From UHGV virus genome UHGV-0036156: a stretch of DNA of 33,121 nucleotides. One strand, 5' to 3'. The position numbers and the translations under genes are program-made. Each line of letters opens with the position of its first letter. Position 1 is the stretch's first letter. Below the pieces are notes generated by a model that was not told the origin of the DNA, did no database searches, and worked only from the letters and a program-made list of their open reading frames with translations. The DNA comes from a virus. Of the stretch, positions 7,248 through 12,767 are shown piece by piece.

Positions 7248-7551
7248 TGGCGTATTTACAAAATCAGAAGAACTTACGGCCCTGCTGATTGCCGGTGGTT
7301 TACCGGAAAACGAGGTCAACGACTTTGTGGCCTTTGTATATGCCCCGTCTTACGAACAGGCTATTGATGAGGTCATGGCGTACCGACTGGGCATTGTTGC
7401 TGAGTCACTGAGTCCTCACTGGATTATTGAAAATCTCCGCACTATTGCTGATGGCAACGATAAAGTGGCGGCTGTCGCCGCCCTTGATGTGCTGCAACGT
7501 ATGAACCGGGAACTATTCAATCCCGAGTTTCTTTTTAAGAAACGAGGTTAA
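7240..7551 (+). CDS. Early protein, function unknown
   Basis: ORF track 7225..7551; the ATG at 7240 follows GAAGGTGA at good spacing. Confidence 0.5.
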   Translation: MNNGVFTKSEELTALLIAGGLPENEVNDFVAFVYAPSYEQAIDEVMAYRLGIVAESLSPHWIIENLRTIADGNDKVAAVAALDVLQRMNRELFNPEFLFKKRG

Positions 7552-7929
7552 CCACTGTTTGCCGACGTCTGTTACGAGCGTCATCGGGGCGTCGGCAAGC
7601 TCCTGTTTTATACGCTCAAGAATGGGTTTTTGATGTAGTGCTTTCGCAAAATCATGACCATCTTGTGTGAGTCTGACACTGGTGCCTGAATATGAATATC
7701 CGAGGCTTGTCGGGGTGAGACCAATGCTTTTTGCGGTGCCTGTTTCCAGATATCTGTTGCTGATAAAACCATTTTCAACCAGCAACAGAAGATGGAAAAC
7801 CAGCTTCTGATGGCTGTCGCTGTGCCGCTGAGAACGATCCCAGCCGACATCTTCCAGTCGAATGAATGCAGTGTCGGCCTCCAGGAATACATCAAATATT
7901 CTGGCTATCTCGTCATAATCAATTTTCAT
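7513..7929 (-). CDS. Counter-oriented accessory gene (138 aa), function unknown
   Basis: Only sizeable ORF in 7552..7942, antisense to the early operon. AAGGAA 6 nt upstream of its ATG; 3' end overlaps the converging plus-strand gene by 39 bp. Confidence 0.6.
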   Translation of the reverse strand: MKIDYDEIARIFDVFLEADTAFIRLEDVGWDRSQRHSDSHQKLVFHLLLLVENGFISNRYLETGTAKSIGLTPTSLGYSYSGTSVRLTQDGHDFAKALHQKPILERIKQELADAPMTLVTDVGKQWLTSFLKKKLGIE

Positions 7930-7959: not shown

Positions 7960-8511
7960 GTGAATCGCACATCGCTTATTAAATTAATCCATGTCGCCCG
8001 TCGGGAGCTACAACTCGACGACGACACCTACCGTGCCTTTCTGATGCAGAACACGGGCAAAATCAGTTGCCGTGAGCTGACCGTCGCGCAACTGGAGCTG
8101 GTGCTCGATGCCATGAAAGAACGCGGTTTTAAGAAGCAGAATAAACACCCACGCCGTCGCTTTAATGGGCATGTAACGCCCCGCGAAAAGGTATTAAAAA
8201 TCTGGCAGCAAATGGCAGAAGACGGTTTTATTGCCGATGGCAGTGATACAGCACTGGATAAATACGTCGAACGACTGACAGCCAGACGTAATGGCGGACA
8301 GGGTGTTTCCACGCTGGCGTGGTGTCACGGAGAATCGTTACAAATTGTGCTTGAAACCCTGAAACAGTGGCACATCCGCTGTATCCGTGAAGCCTTTTCC
8401 CGTTATGGGCTCCCGTTGCCGGTCAGCCCGTCCGGGCGTGAACTGCGTGGCTATGATGCCATGACAGCAGCTTATGCCCGTGCAAGAAAAACACGGAGAC
8501 TGGCACAATGA
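7960..8511 (+). CDS. GemA-like protein (Mu gp16 family)
   Basis: Begins (M)NRTSLIKLIHVARRELQLDDDTYRAF, resembling my recollection of the Mu GemA N-terminus; immediately upstream of mor. GTG at 7960 after GAGAGGTGAG, or ATG at 7943. Confidence 0.7.
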   Translation: MNRTSLIKLIHVARRELQLDDDTYRAFLMQNTGKISCRELTVAQLELVLDAMKERGFKKQNKHPRRRFNGHVTPREKVLKIWQQMAEDGFIADGSDTALDKYVERLTARRNGGQGVSTLAWCHGESLQIVLETLKQWHIRCIREAFSRYGLPLPVSPSGRELRGYDAMTAAYARARKTRRLAQ

Positions 8512-8897
8512 CGCAGGATTTGTTTGGCGACTTTCAGGATGACAGTATCCTGGCTCATCTTGACAATGAATCCGGGGATACGTCACGATTTCCGGCACTG
8601 CTGGCGGAACTGAACGATGTGCTGCGTCAGGAACTGTCCCGGCTGGGCGTTGAACCTGCGCACTCTCTGGAGATTGTTGTGGCTATCTGTAAACATCTTG
8701 GCGGTGGTCAGGTCTATATTCCTCGTGGGCAGGTGCTGGATTCACTGGTTCGGGATTTACGAATCTGGAATGATTTTAACGGGCGCAATGTTCACGAACT
8801 GGCAATTCGTTATGGTGTGACGTTTAACACTGTCTATAAAGCCATCCGACGAATGCGGCGTATAAAGTATCGTCAGTATCAACCCCCTCTGTTTTAA
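8508..8897 (+). CDS. mor: Mor-like middle-operon transcription activator (Mor/C family)
   Basis: 129 aa, the length of Mu Mor; clear paralogue of the C-like protein at 10257 (shared GG-Q-YIPRG ... FNGRN ... YK-I-R-R motifs); last gene before the early terminator. Confidence 0.85.
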   Translation: MTQDLFGDFQDDSILAHLDNESGDTSRFPALLAELNDVLRQELSRLGVEPAHSLEIVVAICKHLGGGQVYIPRGQVLDSLVRDLRIWNDFNGRNVHELAIRYGVTFNTVYKAIRRMRRIKYRQYQPPLF

Positions 8898-8902
8898 ACA
8901 GT

Positions 8903-8927
8903 AAAGCCGGTTAATCCGGCTTTTTTT
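8903..8927 (+). terminator. Rho-independent terminator at the end of the early operon
   Basis: AAAGCCGG-TTAAT-CCGGCTTT hairpin followed by a run of seven T, 6 nt after the mor stop. Confidence 0.8.
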
Positions 8928-8979
8928 ACGCCCTCAATATTCTGTTGTGACGATAAAACGTTCATTACAGGAGGGCAAC

Positions 8980-9540
8980 ATGCCTGAGTTTTCCCCTGCA
9001 TTCCTTCATTCGCTGAATTTTGTTATACGGCCTGATGTTGAAGGTGGTTACGTTAATGATCCCACTGACCGTGGCGGCGAAACCAAATACGGCATTTCTG
9101 ACCGTCGCGACGGCGTTATTGATGGCAAAACCGATGTTAACGGTGACGGGAAGCCTGATACCCGTATTAAAGATTTAACCCACGAGCAGGCGGCGCAAAT
9201 CTACTGGCGTGATTACTGGCTGGCGGCAAAGTGTAACGAATGGCCTGATGGTGTTTCCTTATTCGTCTTTGATGCTGCCGTTCAGCACGGTGTTAAACGC
9301 GCAATTCAAATCCTCCAGGCGGCAGCAGGTGTTGATGATGATGGCATCGTCGGCAAAAACACTCGCGCAGCCGTACTGCGTGCCGATACTGACTGGCTGC
9401 TGTTGCAGTGTTTCCTGCGTCGTTCCCGCTATTACGCAGGGATTATCAAATCCAGTACCTCGCAGGGGAAATATCTGAACGGCTGGTTTAACCGTCTGGA
9501 TCTGCTCGCCAGCGCCTGCCGGGAGGTTCTGCATGGGTAA
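8980..9540 (+). CDS. Endolysin, glycoside hydrolase family 108 type
   Basis: N-terminal signature RPDVEGGYVNDPTDRGGETKYGI, longer C-terminal region. CAGGAGGG precedes the ATG at 8980; ORF track starts at an upstream GTG at 8947. Confidence 0.8.
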   Translation: MPEFSPAFLHSLNFVIRPDVEGGYVNDPTDRGGETKYGISDRRDGVIDGKTDVNGDGKPDTRIKDLTHEQAAQIYWRDYWLAAKCNEWPDGVSLFVFDAAVQHGVKRAIQILQAAAGVDDDGIVGKNTRAAVLRADTDWLLLQCFLRRSRYYAGIIKSSTSQGKYLNGWFNRLDLLASACREVLHG

Positions 9541-9751
9541 AGGGTGGGATGCGTCCTTTCGGTTTGGCAGACGCGAACGTTTACGACAGGAGGTGTTACA
9601 TCGGGAGGCCGGAGGTCCACCACCAAAGCCAATGGATTACACAGGGCACGATGGCACCCACGGGAGCTATTACATGAAAGGCTGGCAGTCAGTCGATATG
9701 CCAGAAATTATTCACCACTGCCAGCGTTACAGGGAAAAGCATCATGTTTAA
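9533..9751 (+). CDS. Small protein in the lysis cassette, function unknown
   Basis: ATG overlaps the endolysin stop (ATGGGTAA) with GGGAGG upstream; 72 aa, no transmembrane segment. Confidence 0.45.
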   Translation: MGKGWDASFRFGRRERLRQEVLHREAGGPPPKPMDYTGHDGTHGSYYMKGWQSVDMPEIIHHCQRYREKHHV

Positions 9752-10124
9752 GCGTTTCTGTTATTTGTTACCAAATTGTCTGCCGGTCATGTTGCTGGCG
9801 CTGATTCTGATTATCAGCTTGTTTTATGGTTTGCGGGCGGTGCTGTTCTGGAATGCTGCCGTTTTCAGTGTGGCGCTGTGCTTTACCGGCACTATTTTTG
9901 ATGATCTGTCCCGGACAGGAAAAATCCGACGTTATGCTTCTATTAATGCCATTGATTTTCTTGGTGGCCTCGTCGGGTTAAGTCTTTCGGCTATTGCAAC
10001 CGGGCTTTTAGAAGAAGCGCATCAGTTCACGATTTATGCTTTATCTGGCTTCTGTAGCATATGGTTTTGCTTTCGCCTCCATATCTGTCTGCGACGTTCA
10101 GTACCGTCTGGCGCGGAGGCATGA
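9744..10124 (+). CDS. Multi-pass membrane protein, candidate holin
   Basis: 126 aa with three to four hydrophobic segments, immediately downstream of the endolysin. Confidence 0.55.
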   Translation: MFKRFCYLLPNCLPVMLLALILIISLFYGLRAVLFWNAAVFSVALCFTGTIFDDLSRTGKIRRYASINAIDFLGGLVGLSLSAIATGLLEEAHQFTIYALSGFCSIWFCFRLHICLRRSVPSGAEA

Positions 10125-10246
10125 TGTACAGAAGATTCAGTAATGAATGTTCCGGCATGGCTACGTTGCTGATGGTGATGAAGGGTATCACAGTTATTGC
10201 ACTGCTTGCCGTAGTCACGGGGATCTGTCTGTTAGTTTTTCGCTGA
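10121..10246 (+). CDS. Small single-pass membrane protein (lysis accessory?)
   Basis: ATGA start/stop overlap with the preceding gene; about 41 aa with a C-terminal hydrophobic segment. ORF track frame 10061..10246. Confidence 0.4.
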   Translation: MMYRRFSNECSGMATLLMVMKGITVIALLAVVTGICLLVFR

Positions 10247-10256
10247 TGGGGGCAAA

Positions 10257-10667
10257 ATGACAAATCAGCAGGATTTATTTGAACATGATCCGGCTGTAAG
10301 CCAGTTAATGGATCATATCGACAATATACCGGCTCCTGAGCAGGAGGCCCGCTGGCCCCGCGCGCTGGTTGAGCTGGTTGACGTTCTGGAAACAGAACTG
10401 AAACGTCAGGGCGTGGATGATGCACGGAGCATAGCCCGTAAACAGGTGATGTCCTTATCATGGTTCCTGGGGGGGCGGCAGTATTACATCCCCCGGGGTG
10501 ATGCACTTCTGGCAGCGTTGCGGGATGATCTGATTTACTGCCAGTTTAACGGTCGGAACATAGAGGAGCTGCGGCGTGAACATCGTCTGTCACAACCGCA
10601 GATTTACAAGATTATTGCCCGGCAGAGAAAACTTCATTCACGGCGACATCAGCCCGATTTATTCTGA
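10257..10667 (+). CDS. C: C-like late-gene transcription activator (Mor/C family)
   Basis: 136 aa; paralogue of Mor with the same conserved motifs; sits upstream of the late operons. Confidence 0.85.
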   Translation: MTNQQDLFEHDPAVSQLMDHIDNIPAPEQEARWPRALVELVDVLETELKRQGVDDARSIARKQVMSLSWFLGGRQYYIPRGDALLAALRDDLIYCQFNGRNIEELRREHRLSQPQIYKIIARQRKLHSRRHQPDLF

Positions 10668-10678
10668 GTAACAGCAAT

Positions 10679-10698
10679 CAACCGGTGCAGGCCGGTTG
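10679..10698 (+). terminator. Candidate terminator hairpin after C
   Basis: CAACCGG-TGCAGG-CCGGTTG hairpin 10 nt after the C stop, followed by TGTTAATT; the U-tract is weak. Confidence 0.35.
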
Positions 10699-10740
10699 TG
10701 TTAATTAATAATAACCCCGTCTACAAATTCCCCTGAGTTA

Positions 10741-10766
10741 CCCTCCTTTTATTACCGAAGGAGGGT
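10741..10766 (+). promoter_or_regulatory. Hairpin pairing the Shine-Dalgarno sequence of the downstream gene
   Basis: CCCTCCTT - 9-10 nt loop - AAGGAGGG, ending a few nt before the ATG at 10770; the 8-bp perfect stem contains the ribosome-binding site. Confidence 0.45.
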
Positions 10767-10769
10767 TTC

Positions 10770-11198
10770 ATGAACGATTTTAAAAAACGTCTCCCCCGCA
10801 TCATCAGAACGCTTGCCATCGTGGTACTGGCGGCATGTGGTGGCTGGCAGTTGTCCGGCGATGGTGATTCATCGCTGGCTTCTGTTCAGTACCTTCCATA
10901 CACAGATCAGCACGGCGAACTGACTGTTTGCCTTAACCATCACGGTCCTGATATTCAGCAACGCCCTTACAGCTATGGTGAATGCATCATGCTGTTGAAA
11001 GCAGATTTGAAGCCTGTTTATGACACGTTAAATACCCATCTGAACAGGCCACTGACAGAGGAGCAAAAAAATGCACTGGCGGTGTTTATGTTCAGCGCCG
11101 GTTCTGGTGCTGTGCCCGCTCCCCGTAATAATCAGCTGCTGAATGATGATGTGTTACCGGTGCCGGGATTAATGCCGGGTATGTCGTCAGGGCTGTAA
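10770..11198 (+). CDS. Mu gp22-like lysozyme-fold protein (phage lysozyme family) with altered catalytic site, N-terminal SAR or lipoprotein-type signal
   Basis: YLPYTD...TVC...ECxxLLxxDL...ALxxFxFxxGxG aligns with P21 R-type SAR endolysins. N-terminus MNDFKKR + TLAIVVLAAC. Ala sits where the catalytic Glu is expected, and the protein is about 25 aa short at the C-terminus. Confidence 0.75.
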   Translation: MNDFKKRLPRIIRTLAIVVLAACGGWQLSGDGDSSLASVQYLPYTDQHGELTVCLNHHGPDIQQRPYSYGECIMLLKADLKPVYDTLNTHLNRPLTEEQKNALAVFMFSAGSGAVPAPRNNQLLNDDVLPVPGLMPGMSSGL

Positions 11199-11210
11199 AC
11201 AGGAGAGCGT

Positions 11211-11510
11211 GTGGATATTTATTCAGTGCTGACCTACTCGATAGGCAGTGGCAACACCATTGGTGGCATTTTGTGGTGGGCGGTGAGGCGTACATTTGCC
11301 AGTACGGAACGTGTGGAGCAAATCGAAAGCCGTTTAACCGCGCTTGAAACGAAGTGCGAAAACATGCCCAGTGCACAGGATTTACATGCTGTCCGGTTAC
11401 AAACCGCAGAAACCAATGGTGAAGTGAAAGCGATGAACCGGCACATACAGGTGCTGACCCATCAACTGGAGCTTTTGCTCGAAAAGGCGCTCGGAGAGAA
11501 CAACAAATGA
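11211..11510 (+). CDS. Releasin-like membrane-tethered protein (Mu gp25 position)
   Basis: 99 aa with an N-terminal hydrophobic segment (IYSVLTYSIGSGNTIGGILWWAV) and a coiled-coil-like remainder; directly follows the gp22-like gene. GTG start. Confidence 0.6.
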   Translation: MDIYSVLTYSIGSGNTIGGILWWAVRRTFASTERVEQIESRLTALETKCENMPSAQDLHAVRLQTAETNGEVKAMNRHIQVLTHQLELLLEKALGENNK

Positions 11511-11797
11511 TTGACGACATTCTGACGCAGGATCGCCGCCTGGTCATCCTGCGTTCACTGATGGACTGCAATAACGAGGCTAACGAATCCATTTTGCAGG
11601 ATTGCCTGGATGCTTACGGGCATAACGTTTCACGTGATGTGGTTCGTGGTCAGATTGACTGGCTGGCAGAACAGCAGCTTGTCACCGTGGAAAACCTGCG
11701 CGGCTTTTATGTCGTGACGCTGACCTCCCGTGGTCAGGATGTGGCTGAAGGCCGGGCTCGTGTTTCCGGTGTCAAACGTCCACGTCCCCGCTTCTGA
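11507..11797 (+). CDS. Conserved Mu-like protein (gp26 position), function unknown
   Basis: 96-aa ORF overlapping the previous stop, same strand. Confidence 0.55.
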   Translation: MIDDILTQDRRLVILRSLMDCNNEANESILQDCLDAYGHNVSRDVVRGQIDWLAEQQLVTVENLRGFYVVTLTSRGQDVAEGRARVSGVKRPRPRF

Positions 11798-12397: not shown

Positions 12398-12592
12398 ATG
12401 GCTGTTGAAACCAAAGAAAAAACGTCTGCGGAAATTGCCCTGAAACTCAAACCCATCGTCGAAGCGGCGCTGGCTGAGGAGGGCAATATTCATATCGTCA
12501 CAAAAGCCGAATCACTGTATCTGTTAATGCAGATTGTGGTTGGCCCGCGTATCGCGGGCCAGATCATCAGAGAGTCACAAATTAATCAGTAA
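12398..12592 (+). CDS. Small protein, function unknown, in an inserted segment between terminase genes
   Basis: AAGGAG 8 nt upstream of ATG at 12398 (ORF track frame 12326..12592); 64 aa. Confidence 0.5.
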   Translation: MAVETKEKTSAEIALKLKPIVEAALAEEGNIHIVTKAESLYLLMQIVVGPRIAGQIIRESQINQ

Positions 12593-12767
12593 TCATTGCC
12601 TCCAGCAACTGATAAATATGTTTTAACAACTCCCGTTCTGACTTCACATTTTGATCAGAACCGGCAAGACACGCTGGCTGTTTATTCGTATTCATGCCAG
12701 CGATAACAAAGTCACTTGCTATTTTTGCAATCTCAATTTTTTGGTCAATGGTCAGCTTTTCTTTCAT
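12582..12767 (-). CDS. Counter-oriented small protein (61 aa), function unknown
   Basis: Minus-strand ORF with AAGAGG 5 nt upstream of its ATG and a TATAAA -10-like element about 30 nt further upstream; local AT-rich composition. Confidence 0.5.
   Translation of the reverse strand: MKEKLTIDQKIEIAKIASDFVIAGMNTNKQPACLAGSDQNVKSERELLKHIYQLLEAMITD

What the first reader, a model, noticed from the sequence alone, without database searches (positions are those of the whole stretch)
8898..10246. Acquired lysis cassette (GH108 endolysin plus membrane proteins) placed between mor and C
After the early terminator the first gene is a GH108-type endolysin (EGGYVNDP...GGETKYGI), followed by a translationally coupled 72-aa ORF, a three- to four-pass membrane protein and a small single-pass membrane protein, and only then the C activator. 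As I recall, in Mu C directly follows mor and the only endolysin is the SAR-type gp22 released without a holin. Here a holin/endolysin-style module appears inserted into the middle operon, which would put endolysin synthesis under Mor rather than C control.
Basis: partly seen in the sequence, partly recalled or inferred. Interest (0 to 1): 0.5.

Follow-up and report, generated by a model that had tools for sequence, protein, structure and literature searches.

The report
Ancestral GH108 endolysin in Mu-like middle operon
A Mu-like prophage of E. coli carries a cell-wall-cutting enzyme gene as the first gene of its Mor-activated middle operon; the gene is not a new insertion but an old lysis gene that phage Mu itself has lost, and here it is the only intact wall-degrading enzyme.

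Summary
Window 8980-9540 encodes a GH108 + PG_binding_3 muramidase with no export signal, followed by three translationally coupled small genes and then C.

- The three small genes are orthologues of Mu gp18, gp19 and gp20, which lie between mor and C in Mu itself. Only the GH108 gene is extra relative to Mu.
- GH108 was not acquired. It sits directly upstream of gp18 in 79 of 97 surveyed Mu-like loci.
- Its gene tree matches the tree of the flanking genes. The GH108-less Mu/D108 group is one clade nested inside GH108-bearing relatives, which implies a single loss.
- In one-activator relatives (Klebsiella, Vibrio, Shewanella) GH108 is the only endolysin and lies behind the same Mor-site hairpin.

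So Mu's gp18 and gp19 look like leftovers of an older lysis cassette.

Placement under Mor control is supported by promoter homology: 56 of 62 aligned positions match Mu Pm.

An unexpected point is that this prophage's "lys" gene lacks the catalytic Glu (a natural E37A), carries a lipobox and has no spanin genes after it. GH108 is therefore its only intact muralytic enzyme. How GH108 reaches the wall is not resolved.

I rate this a new variant of a known kind, of moderate interest.

The parts
8508..8897 (+). mor, the middle-operon activator and last early gene
   Evidence: Pfam Mor E 3.9e-33. 87% identical to Mu Mor.
8895..8957 (+). Homologue of the Mu middle promoter Pm. It includes the early-terminator / Mor-site hairpin (stem-loop 8906-8920, T-run 8921-8927).
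   Evidence: 56 of 62 aligned positions are identical to the Pm feature annotated in AF083977 at 9168-9228. The 25-nt hairpin core is also conserved upstream of GH108 in Klebsiella phage Kp4866-3.
8980..9540 (+). GH108 + PG_binding_3 N-acetylmuramidase-type endolysin, 186 aa, with no signal or TM segment. Catalytic Glu21 lies in the EGGY motif at 9040-9042.
   Evidence: Pfam PF05838 E 3e-24 and PF09374 E 5e-14. PHROG 315 'endolysin' E 3e-51. PDB sequence relatives 2ikb and 7dnp. Highest 19-residue hydropathy 0.93. Glu conserved in at least 95% of 59 unique relatives. dN/dS 0.04-0.08.
9533..9751 (+). Orthologue of Mu gp18, 72 aa, soluble. Predicted three-helix protein of unknown function.
   Evidence: 85% identical to Mu gp18. 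PHROG 2121. Precomputed PF26867 Phage_Mu_gp18 in relatives. AlphaFold2 pLDDT 87.8 with no PDB fold match. Always lies immediately downstream of the endolysin slot.
9744..10124 (+). Orthologue of Mu gp19, 126 aa, a four-pass inner-membrane protein
   Evidence: 39% identical to Mu gp19, E 2e-16. PHROG 4975 E 2e-56. Profile-profile match to the 4-TM protein at the same position in Klebsiella-type phages: probability 85%, score 37.5, against at most 24.9 in 20 column-shuffled controls.
10121..10246 (+). Orthologue of Mu gp20, 41 aa, a single-pass membrane protein
   Evidence: 43% identical to Mu gp20. PHROG 19823. One TM segment at residues 22-40. Retained even where gp19 is deleted.
10257..10667 (+). 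C, the late-gene activator and last gene of the middle operon
   Evidence: Pfam Mor family E 2e-32. 75% identical to Mu C.
10679..10698 (+). Terminator-like hairpin after C
   Evidence: Consensus scan. Mu has a predicted terminator at the equivalent place.
10770..11198 (+). Degenerate lysozyme-like protein in the 'lys' slot ('lysLP'), 142 aa. It has a predicted lipoprotein signal (LAAC, Cys23), no catalytic Glu, and a Pro/Gly tail in place of the C-terminal lobe.
   Evidence: Pfam Phage_lysozyme E 6e-11, covering only profile positions 6-93 of 125. 41% identical to Mu gp22 over 111 aa, with Ala at the Mu E37 position. Family of 138-142-aa proteins with dN/dS 0.16-0.18.
11211..11510 (+). DUF2730 protein, homologue of the Mu gp25 'releasin'. 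It follows the lys-like gene directly, with no spanin or gp24 genes between them.
   Evidence: Pfam DUF2730 E 4e-16. 41% identical to Mu gp25. Gene order.

Best explanation
The segment is the promoter-proximal part of the Mor-activated middle operon of an intact-looking Mu-like prophage of the E. coli SE11 type.

**What is shown**
- The first gene encodes a soluble GH108/PG_binding_3 muramidase.
- It is followed by orthologues of Mu gp18, gp19 and gp20, and then by C.
- The four genes are translationally coupled and lie behind a conserved copy of Mu's Mor-dependent promoter.

**What comparative data support strongly**
- The muramidase is the ancestral endolysin of this phage lineage, not an insertion.
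- In relatives with a single Mor-family activator, the order is endolysin - gp18 - (4-TM protein) - K201 - TraR - DUF2730. This block sits directly behind the same Mor-site hairpin, and the GH108 protein is the only endolysin.
- The Mu branch later gained C, a SAR lysozyme and spanins downstream. That left the head of the old cassette under Mor control.
- Mu and D108 then deleted the GH108 gene but kept gp18-gp20.

**What is inferred for this prophage**
- The muramidase is made from the middle transcript.
- It accumulates harmlessly in the cytoplasm because it has no export signal.
- It degrades the wall only when the inner membrane is breached late in infection.
- The lys-slot protein naturally lacks the catalytic Glu and no spanins are encoded, so GH108 is probably the working endolysin here.

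**What is not resolved**
- The membrane-breaching factor is unknown.
- Candidates are the DUF2730 protein, gp20 with or without gp19, and the lysozyme-derived lipoprotein.
For: - **Domain identity and conserved catalytic Glu:**
- **No hydrophobic segment in GH108:**
- **Strong purifying selection:** dN/dS 0.04-0.08.
- **Orthology of the three small genes to Mu gp18, gp19 and gp20:**
- **Pm conserved:**
- **Survey of loci:** GH108 lies directly upstream of gp18 in 79 of 97 loci, with a median gap of 6 nt.
- **Co-divergence with flanks:** identity to Klebsiella phage Kp4866-3 is 72% for GH108, against 61% for Mor and 74% for gp18.
- **Flank tree (gp16 + Mor + gp18):** the C-bearing clade is monophyletic in 300 of 300 bootstraps. 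The GH108-less group is monophyletic in 298 of 300 and nested within GH108-bearing lineages in 300 of 300.
- **GH108 tree is congruent:** monophyletic in 300 of 300, with the same sister subclade in 272 of 300.
- **Number of activators:** one-activator relatives have one Mor/C gene per genome, while Mu-type phages have two.
- **Literature precedent:** GH108 + PG_binding_3 is already listed as the endolysin of the Vibrio Mu-like phages (Chamblee et al. 2022, Table S1).
- **gp19 orthology to the 4-TM protein of Klebsiella-type phages:**
- **State of the lys slot:** Ala at the E37 position, lipobox, truncated fold, no spanins. E37A is the experimentally inactive gp22 allele.
- **Recurrence:** the same architecture occurs in Salmonella diarizonae and in metagenomic contigs, always together with GH108.
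- **Prophage integrity:** the prophage is annotated without pseudogenes.
Against: - No enzymatic, transcriptional or lysis data exist for this prophage. Mor control is inferred from promoter homology only.
- No recognisable holin accompanies GH108 here. The K201 protein of the one-activator relatives is absent.
- Mu gp19 and gp20 behave as non-holins in experiments. gp19 is dispensable in the GH108-bearing phages vB_YpM_5 and vB_YpM_6 and in L096.
- No spanin is present, so it is unclear how the outer membrane would be broken.
- In phages that keep an active SAR lysozyme (vB_YpM_5/6, E. coli elppa5), GH108 may be redundant.
- The trees are neighbour-joining trees of short, locally linked genes in notoriously mosaic phages.
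- The locus sample is the best 80 of 130 viral-contig hits plus 8 genome hits. It is not an unbiased census.
Confidence: 0.65

Rival explanations
1. A foreign holin/endolysin cassette (GH108 plus the three small genes) was recently inserted between mor and C of a Mu-type genome.
For: - Relative to Mu, about 580 bp are extra (window about 8951-9532, against 24 nt in Mu).
- The gene order, endolysin followed by small membrane proteins, resembles a lysis cassette.
Against: - gp18, gp19 and gp20 are present in Mu itself.
- The GH108-gp18 pair is the majority arrangement.
- The GH108 tree is congruent with the flank tree.
- GH108 divergence equals backbone divergence.
- The GH108-less group is a derived nested clade in 300 of 300 bootstraps.
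Confidence: 0.04
2. A canonical holin-endolysin system under Mor control. gp19 (four TM) and gp20 (one TM) are the holin/antiholin pair that releases the GH108 enzyme.
For: - They lie immediately downstream and are translationally coupled.
- Their membrane topology fits.
- A 4-TM orthologue occupies the same place in Klebsiella-type phages, where GH108 is the sole endolysin.
- Samanta et al. proposed gp19/gp20 as holin/antiholin, as cited in PMC9239132.
- The window's gp19 and gp20 are only about 38-43% identical to Mu's, so the negative Mu results may not transfer.
Against: - Mu gp19, gp20 and the pair together are not lethal and cannot be triggered by DNP. They are dispensable for lysis.
- gp19 is deleted in the GH108-bearing plaque-formers vB_YpM_5/6 and in the Salmonella locus L096, which has the same dead-lysozyme architecture.
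- The Vibrio and Shewanella relatives lack the 4-TM gene altogether.
- Middle-phase expression of a holin would risk lysis before assembly.
Confidence: 0.15
3. GH108 is retained for a role other than host lysis at burst. Examples would be a second wall-degrading activity that only speeds up lysis begun by other factors, or a non-lytic use of a muramidase as with the typhoid-toxin muramidase TtsA. Alternatively it is functionally redundant.
For: - GH108 coexists with an intact SAR lysozyme plus spanins in vB_YpM_5/6 and in E. coli elppa5.
- The presumed holin partner K201 is missing in all C-type phages.
- The GH108-type PDB relative Sen1395 (6v3z) is a weak hit. That it belongs to the TtsA group is from my own knowledge.
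Against: - Very low dN/dS argues against redundancy.
- The promoter is Mor-dependent, so the gene should be silent in lysogens.
- In the window type no other enzyme retains a catalytic Glu.
- The dead-lysozyme variant is found only together with GH108.
Confidence: 0.12
4. The prophage is lysis-defective or cryptic. The lys gene is decayed, the spanins are deleted, and GH108 is an irrelevant remnant.
For: - The catalytic Glu is lost, the lys-like gene is truncated and the spanin and gp24 genes are absent.
- Only 3 of 5,426 complete E. coli genomes carry this version.
Against: - All other phage genes are open and none is annotated as a pseudogene.
- The short lys-like protein keeps its length (138-142 aa) and lipobox across 64-99% identity, with dN/dS 0.16-0.18 at dS up to 1.6.
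- The same architecture recurs in E. coli, Salmonella diarizonae and metagenomic contigs.
Confidence: 0.08

Closest known systems
Phage Mu middle operon (Pm - gp18 - gp19 - gp20 - C; GenBank AF083977)
   Same: - The same Mor-site/terminator hairpin and promoter, with 56 of 62 aligned positions identical.
- Orthologous gp18 (85% identity), gp19 (39%), gp20 (43%) and C (75%).
- The same order and tight coupling.
   Different: - An additional 561-bp GH108 gene lies between the promoter and gp18.
- The gp19-to-gp25 stretch is a divergent allele set, at about 38-41% identity.
Yersinia Muvirus phages vB_YpM_5 and vB_YpM_6, and E. coli prophages such as that of strain elppa5
   Same: GH108 (98% amino-acid identity) lies at the identical position, followed by gp18. 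These are plaque-forming phages.
   Different: - They keep an active-type SAR lysozyme, spanins and gp24.
- vB_YpM_5 and vB_YpM_6 lack gp19.
- The published descriptions of these phages do not mention the GH108 gene.
Lysis cassette of one-activator Mu-like phages (Klebsiella Kp4866-3, Vibrio 1.028.O group, Shewanella MuM16-2)
   Same: - Mor, then the same hairpin (in Kp4866-3).
- GH108 + PG_binding_3 at 72% identity in Kp4866-3 and 46-48% in the Vibrio and Shewanella phages.
- A gp18 homologue immediately downstream, and DUF2730 further on.
- GH108 is listed as the endolysin of the Vibrio phages in Chamblee et al. 2022, Table S1.
   Different: - They have no C, no T4-type lysozyme and no gp20.
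- They carry the K201 protein and a TraR/DksA zinc-finger protein, which the window lacks. K201 gives only sub-threshold GTA_holin_3TM hits, E 0.003-0.005.
GH108 endolysins (coliphage N4 gp61 type) and the 'holin-associated N-acetylmuramidase' family NF040573
   Same: - The EGGY catalytic motif and the two-domain architecture.
- No signal peptide.
- The role of EGGY in N4 gp61 is from my own knowledge of the Pfam description.
   Different: - The score against NF040573 is 69.5 bits, far below its 240-bit cut-off, so the window protein is not that equivalog.
- No adjacent recognisable holin.
- The window protein has an extra D-x-D-x-D-G-like loop at residues 48-60.

Membership tests
Glycoside hydrolase family 108 (PF05838) muramidases | Sequence match to the family model above the curated threshold | tested here: met
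   85.7 bits against a cut-off of 21.2, E 3e-24, covering profile positions 7-85 of 85.
Glycoside hydrolase family 108 (PF05838) muramidases | Conserved N-terminal EGGY motif with the catalytic Glu | tested here: met
   E21-G-G-Y at 9040-9051. Glu is conserved in at least 95% of 59 unique relatives.
Glycoside hydrolase family 108 (PF05838) muramidases | C-terminal PG_binding_3 domain, the usual partner domain | tested here: met
   PF09374: 52.6 bits against a cut-off of 24.6, residues 107-173.
Glycoside hydrolase family 108 (PF05838) muramidases | N-acetylmuramidase activity on peptidoglycan | not testable with these tools
   Needs purified protein and a zymogram or muropeptide analysis.
Canonical (soluble, holin-dependent) phage endolysin | No signal peptide or SAR domain, so the protein accumulates in the cytoplasm | tested here: met
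   Highest 19-residue Kyte-Doolittle hydropathy is 0.93, and no TM segment is found.
Canonical (soluble, holin-dependent) phage endolysin | Co-transcribed with a holin | tested here: inconclusive
   gp19 and gp20 are adjacent membrane proteins. Their Mu orthologues are not holins in experiments, and gp19 is often deleted. The K201 candidate of relatives is absent here.
Canonical (soluble, holin-dependent) phage endolysin | Expressed from the late transcript | tested here: not met
   By promoter homology the gene lies behind the Mor-dependent middle promoter, upstream of C. No transcript data were available.
Canonical (soluble, holin-dependent) phage endolysin | Required for host lysis | not testable with these tools
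   Needs a knockout in an inducible lysogen.
Phage Mu middle operon | Mor-dependent promoter with a dyad/hairpin overlapping the early terminator | tested here: met
   Window 8895-8957 against Mu 9168-9228: 56 of 62 identical, and the hairpin is identical.
Phage Mu middle operon | Gene content gp18, gp19, gp20, C in that order | tested here: met
   One extra gene, GH108, lies in front.
Holins (applied to 9744-10124 and 10121-10246) | One or more transmembrane domains and small size | tested here: met
   Four hydrophobic segments in the first protein and one in the second (and the Mu annotation).
Holins (applied to 9744-10124 and 10121-10246) | Lethal hole formation that can be triggered by membrane depolarisation | not testable with these tools
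   For the Mu orthologues the published test was negative (PMC9239132). The window's alleles are only about 40% identical and have not been tested.
SAR endolysin of Mu (gp22 type), applied to 10770-11198 | Catalytic triad Glu-Asp-Thr (E37, D46, T52 in Mu) | tested here: not met
   Ala lies at the E37 position. Across the small family this position is A or D, and the D46 and T52 positions are not invariant. E37A inactivates Mu gp22.
SAR endolysin of Mu (gp22 type), applied to 10770-11198 | Complete lysozyme fold | tested here: not met
   The Pfam match stops at profile position 93 of 125. The last 30 residues are a Pro/Gly-rich tail, which is disordered in a low-confidence model.

The most novel reading that the evidence does not exclude
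In the SE11-type Mu-like prophages, host lysis is carried out by a middle-phase, Mor-controlled, cytoplasmic GH108 muramidase with no holin and no spanin. Release through the inner membrane would depend on a DUF2730 'releasin'-type protein, or on gp20 with or without gp19, acting on a soluble endolysin. A catalytically dead, lipid-anchored derivative of the former SAR lysozyme would have been re-used for the outer-membrane step. This would be a lysis pathway of a new design. It would also show directly that Mu's enigmatic gp18-gp20 are the stump of an older holin-endolysin cassette.
Probability: 0.15. Interest if true: 0.7.

Novelty: new variant of a known kind. Interest (0 to 1): 0.45.

Why it matters
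- **An origin for gp18-gp20.** Mu's three small middle genes have been non-essential and unexplained for decades, and Mu was recently described as a phage without a holin. The comparison here gives a concrete origin. At least gp18 and gp19 sit where an older GH108-based lysis cassette sat; no precursor was found for gp20. Close relatives of Mu still carry the enzyme.
- **A natural series for experiments.** There are four states: GH108 only; GH108 plus SAR lysozyme; SAR lysozyme only; and GH108 plus a dead lysozyme. This series can be used to test how phages swap lysis systems and how a three-tier transcription cascade was built into a two-tier one.
- **A possible new release route.** The SE11 type has one intact muralytic enzyme, no recognisable holin and no spanin. 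If it lyses cells, it must use an undescribed route for endolysin release and outer-membrane disruption.
- **The limits.** The enzyme family, the phage group and the gene itself are already annotated in public records. This refines a known system and is not a new kind of element.

Tried and rejected
- **K201 as a GTA-type holin.** Pfam gives only sub-threshold hits (E 0.003-0.005). A search of 5.8 billion proteins returned 242 homologues with no Pfam annotation. I kept K201 only as a candidate.
- **gp18 fused to K201.** PHROG 2121 covers both proteins. However, an exhaustive search found only stand-alone proteins of 70-110 aa. The one 205-aa protein found is a frameshift fusion with the 4-TM gene. 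I did not pursue this further.
- **gp18 function from structure.** The three-helix model is confident (pLDDT 87.8), but no PDB match has E below 1.
- **gp20 as a remnant of K201 or of the 4-TM protein.** No profile similarity was found.
- **A deletion scar of GH108 in Mu.** Only spurious 9-mers align between Mu's 24-nt spacer and the GH108 gene.
- **Structure of the lys-like lipoprotein.** The model is too poor for a fold search (pLDDT 55.7).
- **Simple deletion as the origin of the short lys region.** This is rejected. The region has no DNA similarity to the Mu-type lys-spanin region and belongs to a separately conserved family.
- **Terminator scan.** The scan did not list the early terminator hairpin, probably because the extended stem uses up the T-run. 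It is identical to the Mu site predicted by TransTermHP.
- **PADLOC.** No hits for any cassette protein.
Full report
**1. What is in the sequence**

The window is a Mu-like prophage. The stretch queried, 8400-11600, is 99.8% identical to the chromosome of E. coli SE11 (NC_011415). RefSeq annotates that prophage from repressor to tail fibres without pseudogenes.

After mor (8508-8897; Pfam Mor E 4e-33) comes the hairpin GCCGG-TTAAT-CCGGC with a T-run at 8906-8927. The genes that follow are:

| Window coordinates | Size | Identity | Start / coupling |
|---|---|---|---|
| 8980-9540 | 186 aa | GH108 muramidase | ATG preceded by AGGAGG |
| 9533-9751 | 72 aa | soluble protein | overlaps previous stop by 8 nt (ATGGGTAA) |
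| 9744-10124 | 126 aa | four hydrophobic segments | overlaps previous stop by 8 nt |
| 10121-10246 | 41 aa | one TM segment | ATGA overlap |
| 10257-10667 | 136 aa | C, Mor family, E 2e-32 | starts 10 nt after previous stop |

The 186-aa protein matches Glyco_hydro_108 at 85.7 bits (cut-off 21.2) and PG_binding_3 at 52.6 bits. It also matches PHROG 315 'endolysin' at E 3e-51 and GH108-type PDB chains 2ikb and 7dnp. It has no hydrophobic segment.

**2. Comparison with Mu**

The GenBank record of Mu (AF083977) shows that C does not follow mor directly. Pm is followed by gp18 (72 aa), gp19 (four TM), gp20 (one TM) and then C. The window's three small ORFs are their orthologues, at 85%, 39% and 43% identity.

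The promoter region is conserved. Window 8895-8957 matches Mu 9168-9228 at 56 of 62 positions, including the terminator/Mor-site hairpin.

The only difference from Mu in this segment is the GH108 gene. About 580 bp (window 8951-9532) stand where Mu has 24 nt.

**3. How general the arrangement is**

The same GH108 gene (98% amino-acid identity) lies at the same place in the plaque-forming Yersinia Muvirus phages vB_YpM_5 and vB_YpM_6. It also lies there in several E. coli prophages.

More distant homologues occupy the equivalent position in Klebsiella phage Kp4866-3 (72% identity). The Shewanella phage MuM16-2 and the Vibrio 1.028.O group carry it at 46-48% identity. In each case a gp18 homologue follows immediately.

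I collected 88 further loci that encode a gp18 homologue and annotated them with reference proteins. With the loci already held, and leaving out duplicates of the window, 97 loci were classified:

| Upstream of gp18 | Other features | Loci |
|---|---|---|
| GH108 | no C, no T4-type lysozyme, K201 + TraR + DUF2730 downstream | 64 |
| GH108 | C, SAR-type lysozyme, spanins | 10 |
| GH108 | C, short lys-like protein, no spanins (window type) | 5 (plus the window) |
| L,D-transpeptidase-like 140-aa protein | no C, K201 downstream | 4 |
| nothing (Mu type) | C, SAR-type lysozyme, spanins | 14 |

In total, GH108 lies directly upstream of gp18 in 79 loci, with a median gap of 6 nt. That protein is the type Chamblee et al. 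took to be the endolysin of Vibrio phage Martha.

Genomes of the first class have a single Mor/C-family gene, whereas Mu-type genomes have two.

**4. Acquired or ancestral**

- GH108 diverges in step with its neighbours. Between the window and Kp4866-3, identity is 72% for GH108, 61% for Mor, 74% for gp18 and 49% for GemA/gp16.
- I built a neighbour-joining tree of gp16 + Mor + gp18, rooted on the Vibrio and Shewanella phages.
  - The C-bearing phages form one clade in 300 of 300 bootstraps.
  - The GH108-less members (Mu and its close kin) are monophyletic in 298 of 300.
  - They are nested among GH108-bearing members in 300 of 300.
- The GH108 gene tree is congruent. The C-clade enzymes are monophyletic in 300 of 300 and sister to the same Klebsiella-type subclade in 272 of 300.
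- The most parsimonious reading is vertical inheritance of GH108-gp18 and one deletion on the branch leading to Mu.
- gp19 also has a likely orthologue, a 4-TM protein at the same position in the Klebsiella-type phages. hhalign gives probability 85% and score 37.5, against at most 24.9 in 20 column-shuffled controls.

So Mu's non-essential gp18 and gp19 look like the remaining head of an older lysis cassette. That cassette stayed under Mor control when C, a SAR lysozyme and spanins came to lie downstream. gp20 matched neither K201 nor the 4-TM protein, so its origin is not explained.

I found no statement of this in the papers I read. Chamblee et al. 2022 (PMC9239132) list GH108 + PG_binding_3 as the endolysin of the Vibrio phages. 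For vB_YpM_5 and vB_YpM_6 they list only the PF00959 lysozyme. The paper describing the Yersinia phages does not mention the gene.

**5. The rest of the lysis region in this prophage**

From gp19 to the DUF2730 gene (9744-11510) the window is only about 38-41% identical to Mu-type relatives. The flanks are 85-98% identical, so this stretch is a divergent allele set.

The gene in the 'lys' slot (10770-11198, 142 aa) aligns with Mu gp22 but differs in several ways:
- It has Ala where Mu has the catalytic E37.
- It has a strongly hydrophobic N-terminus ending in LAAC-GGW, a lipobox, in place of the SAR domain.
- It replaces the last third of the lysozyme fold with a Pro/Gly-rich tail.

E37A is the very allele used experimentally as an inactive gp22.

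The protein belongs to a small family of 138-142-aa proteins, 64-99% identical, with these features conserved. Its dN/dS is 0.16-0.18 at dS up to 1.6. It is therefore a maintained protein, not a pseudogene.

It is followed directly by the DUF2730 gene, and spanin and gp24 genes are absent. Every locus with this variant also carries GH108-gp18 in the middle operon. That includes a Salmonella diarizonae locus and two metagenomic contigs. No other muralytic gene is annotated in the prophage. GH108 is therefore the only enzyme here with an intact catalytic centre.

**6. Mechanism**

Shown:
- The domain identity, the conserved catalytic Glu and the absence of an export signal.
- Strong purifying selection, with dN/dS 0.04-0.08.
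- The position behind a conserved Pm.
- The coupling to gp18-gp20 and C.

Inferred:
- Mor switches on the operon.
- The muramidase accumulates in the cytoplasm from the middle phase onward.
- It reaches the wall only when the inner membrane is breached.

The breaching factor is open.
- gp19 and gp20 are the obvious candidates by position. Their Mu orthologues are dispensable and cannot be triggered. gp19 is missing from vB_YpM_5/6 and from the Salmonella locus, whereas gp20 is always kept.
- The DUF2730 protein is late-expressed in Mu and occurs in Mu-like phages with cytoplasmic endolysins. It is a second candidate.
- How the outer membrane is broken without spanins is unexplained. The lysozyme-derived lipoprotein is a speculative candidate.

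**7. Verdict**

The finding is real but partly misread. It is not an acquired four-gene cassette. It is the ancestral endolysin gene retained at the head of the normal Mu-type middle operon.

The gene family and the phage group are known, and the gene is already annotated. What is new is the evolutionary reading and the SE11-type architecture, in which the middle-operon GH108 is the only intact muralytic enzyme. I rate it a new variant of a known kind, with moderate interest.

**Caveats**
- There are no experimental data for this prophage.
- The trees are neighbour-joining trees of short, linked genes in mosaic phages.
- The locus sample is not an unbiased census.

Noticed in passing
window 10770-11198 (+): The gene in Mu's 'lys' position encodes a 142-aa lysozyme-like protein. 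It has a lipobox (LAAC, Cys23) in place of a SAR domain, Ala at the catalytic E37 position, and a Pro/Gly-rich tail in place of the C-terminal lobe. It belongs to a conserved family of 138-142-aa proteins in E. coli and Salmonella under purifying selection (dN/dS 0.16-0.18). It appears to be a re-purposed, inactive lysozyme.
   Followed up: partly
window 11198-11211 (junction between the lys-like gene and the DUF2730 gene): No i-spanin, o-spanin or gp24 genes are present. Mu has about 1.2 kb here. The same absence is seen in all five other loci with the short lys-like gene, so it is a stable architecture and not a one-off deletion.
   Followed up: partly
window 9744-11510: The block from gp19 to DUF2730 is only about 38-41% identical at protein level to Mu, vB_YpM_5 and elppa5 (C is 75%). 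The flanks on both sides are 85-98% identical. This is a sharply bounded mosaic replacement of the regulatory and lysis block.
   Followed up: partly
window 9121-9159 (GH108 residues 48-60, DGKTDVNGDGKPD): The enterobacterial GH108 proteins carry a loop of about 12 residues that resembles a D-x-D-x-D-G calcium-binding motif. The loop is absent from the Vibrio, Shewanella and Neisseria (2ikb) relatives.
   Followed up: no
window 7513-7929 (-): A 138-aa gene lies on the opposite strand inside the early region, just upstream of gemA/gp16. RefSeq calls it DUF2513, and it gave no Pfam or PADLOC hit here. Similar antisense ORFs lie at the same place in Kp4866-3 (L007 1633-2037) and vB_YpM_5. It may be a lysogen-expressed moron.
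   Followed up: partly
window 12398-12592 (+) and 12582-12767 (-): Two small convergent ORFs (64 and 61 aa) lie between the small and large terminase genes. In the Mu record the small terminase subunit gene (gp27) starts 11 nt after gp26; what follows gp27 was not fetched, so the comparison with Mu rests on my recollection. Neither ORF gave a Pfam or PADLOC hit.
   Followed up: partly
L011, L013, L014, L015 (about 5550-6000 in L011, L014 and L015; about 2580-3094 in L013): In some Vibrio and Shewanella Mu-like prophages the gene upstream of gp18 is not GH108. It is a 140-aa L,D-transpeptidase-like protein. The endolysin slot is therefore exchangeable while gp18 stays constant.
   Followed up: partly
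L007 4149-4688; protein P0008: In Klebsiella-type phages the 4-TM gene has an upstream extension that overlaps gp18 in another frame. One database protein (205 aa) is a gp18 N-terminus fused to that frame. This could be a sequencing frameshift or a real fusion.
   Followed up: no
L005-L015 and L039-L095, position of Mu C: One-activator Mu-like phages carry a TraR/DksA-type zinc-finger gene between K201 and DUF2730, roughly where Mu has C. It could be their late-gene regulator. This is speculation by analogy with zinc-finger late activators of P2-type phages.
   Followed up: no
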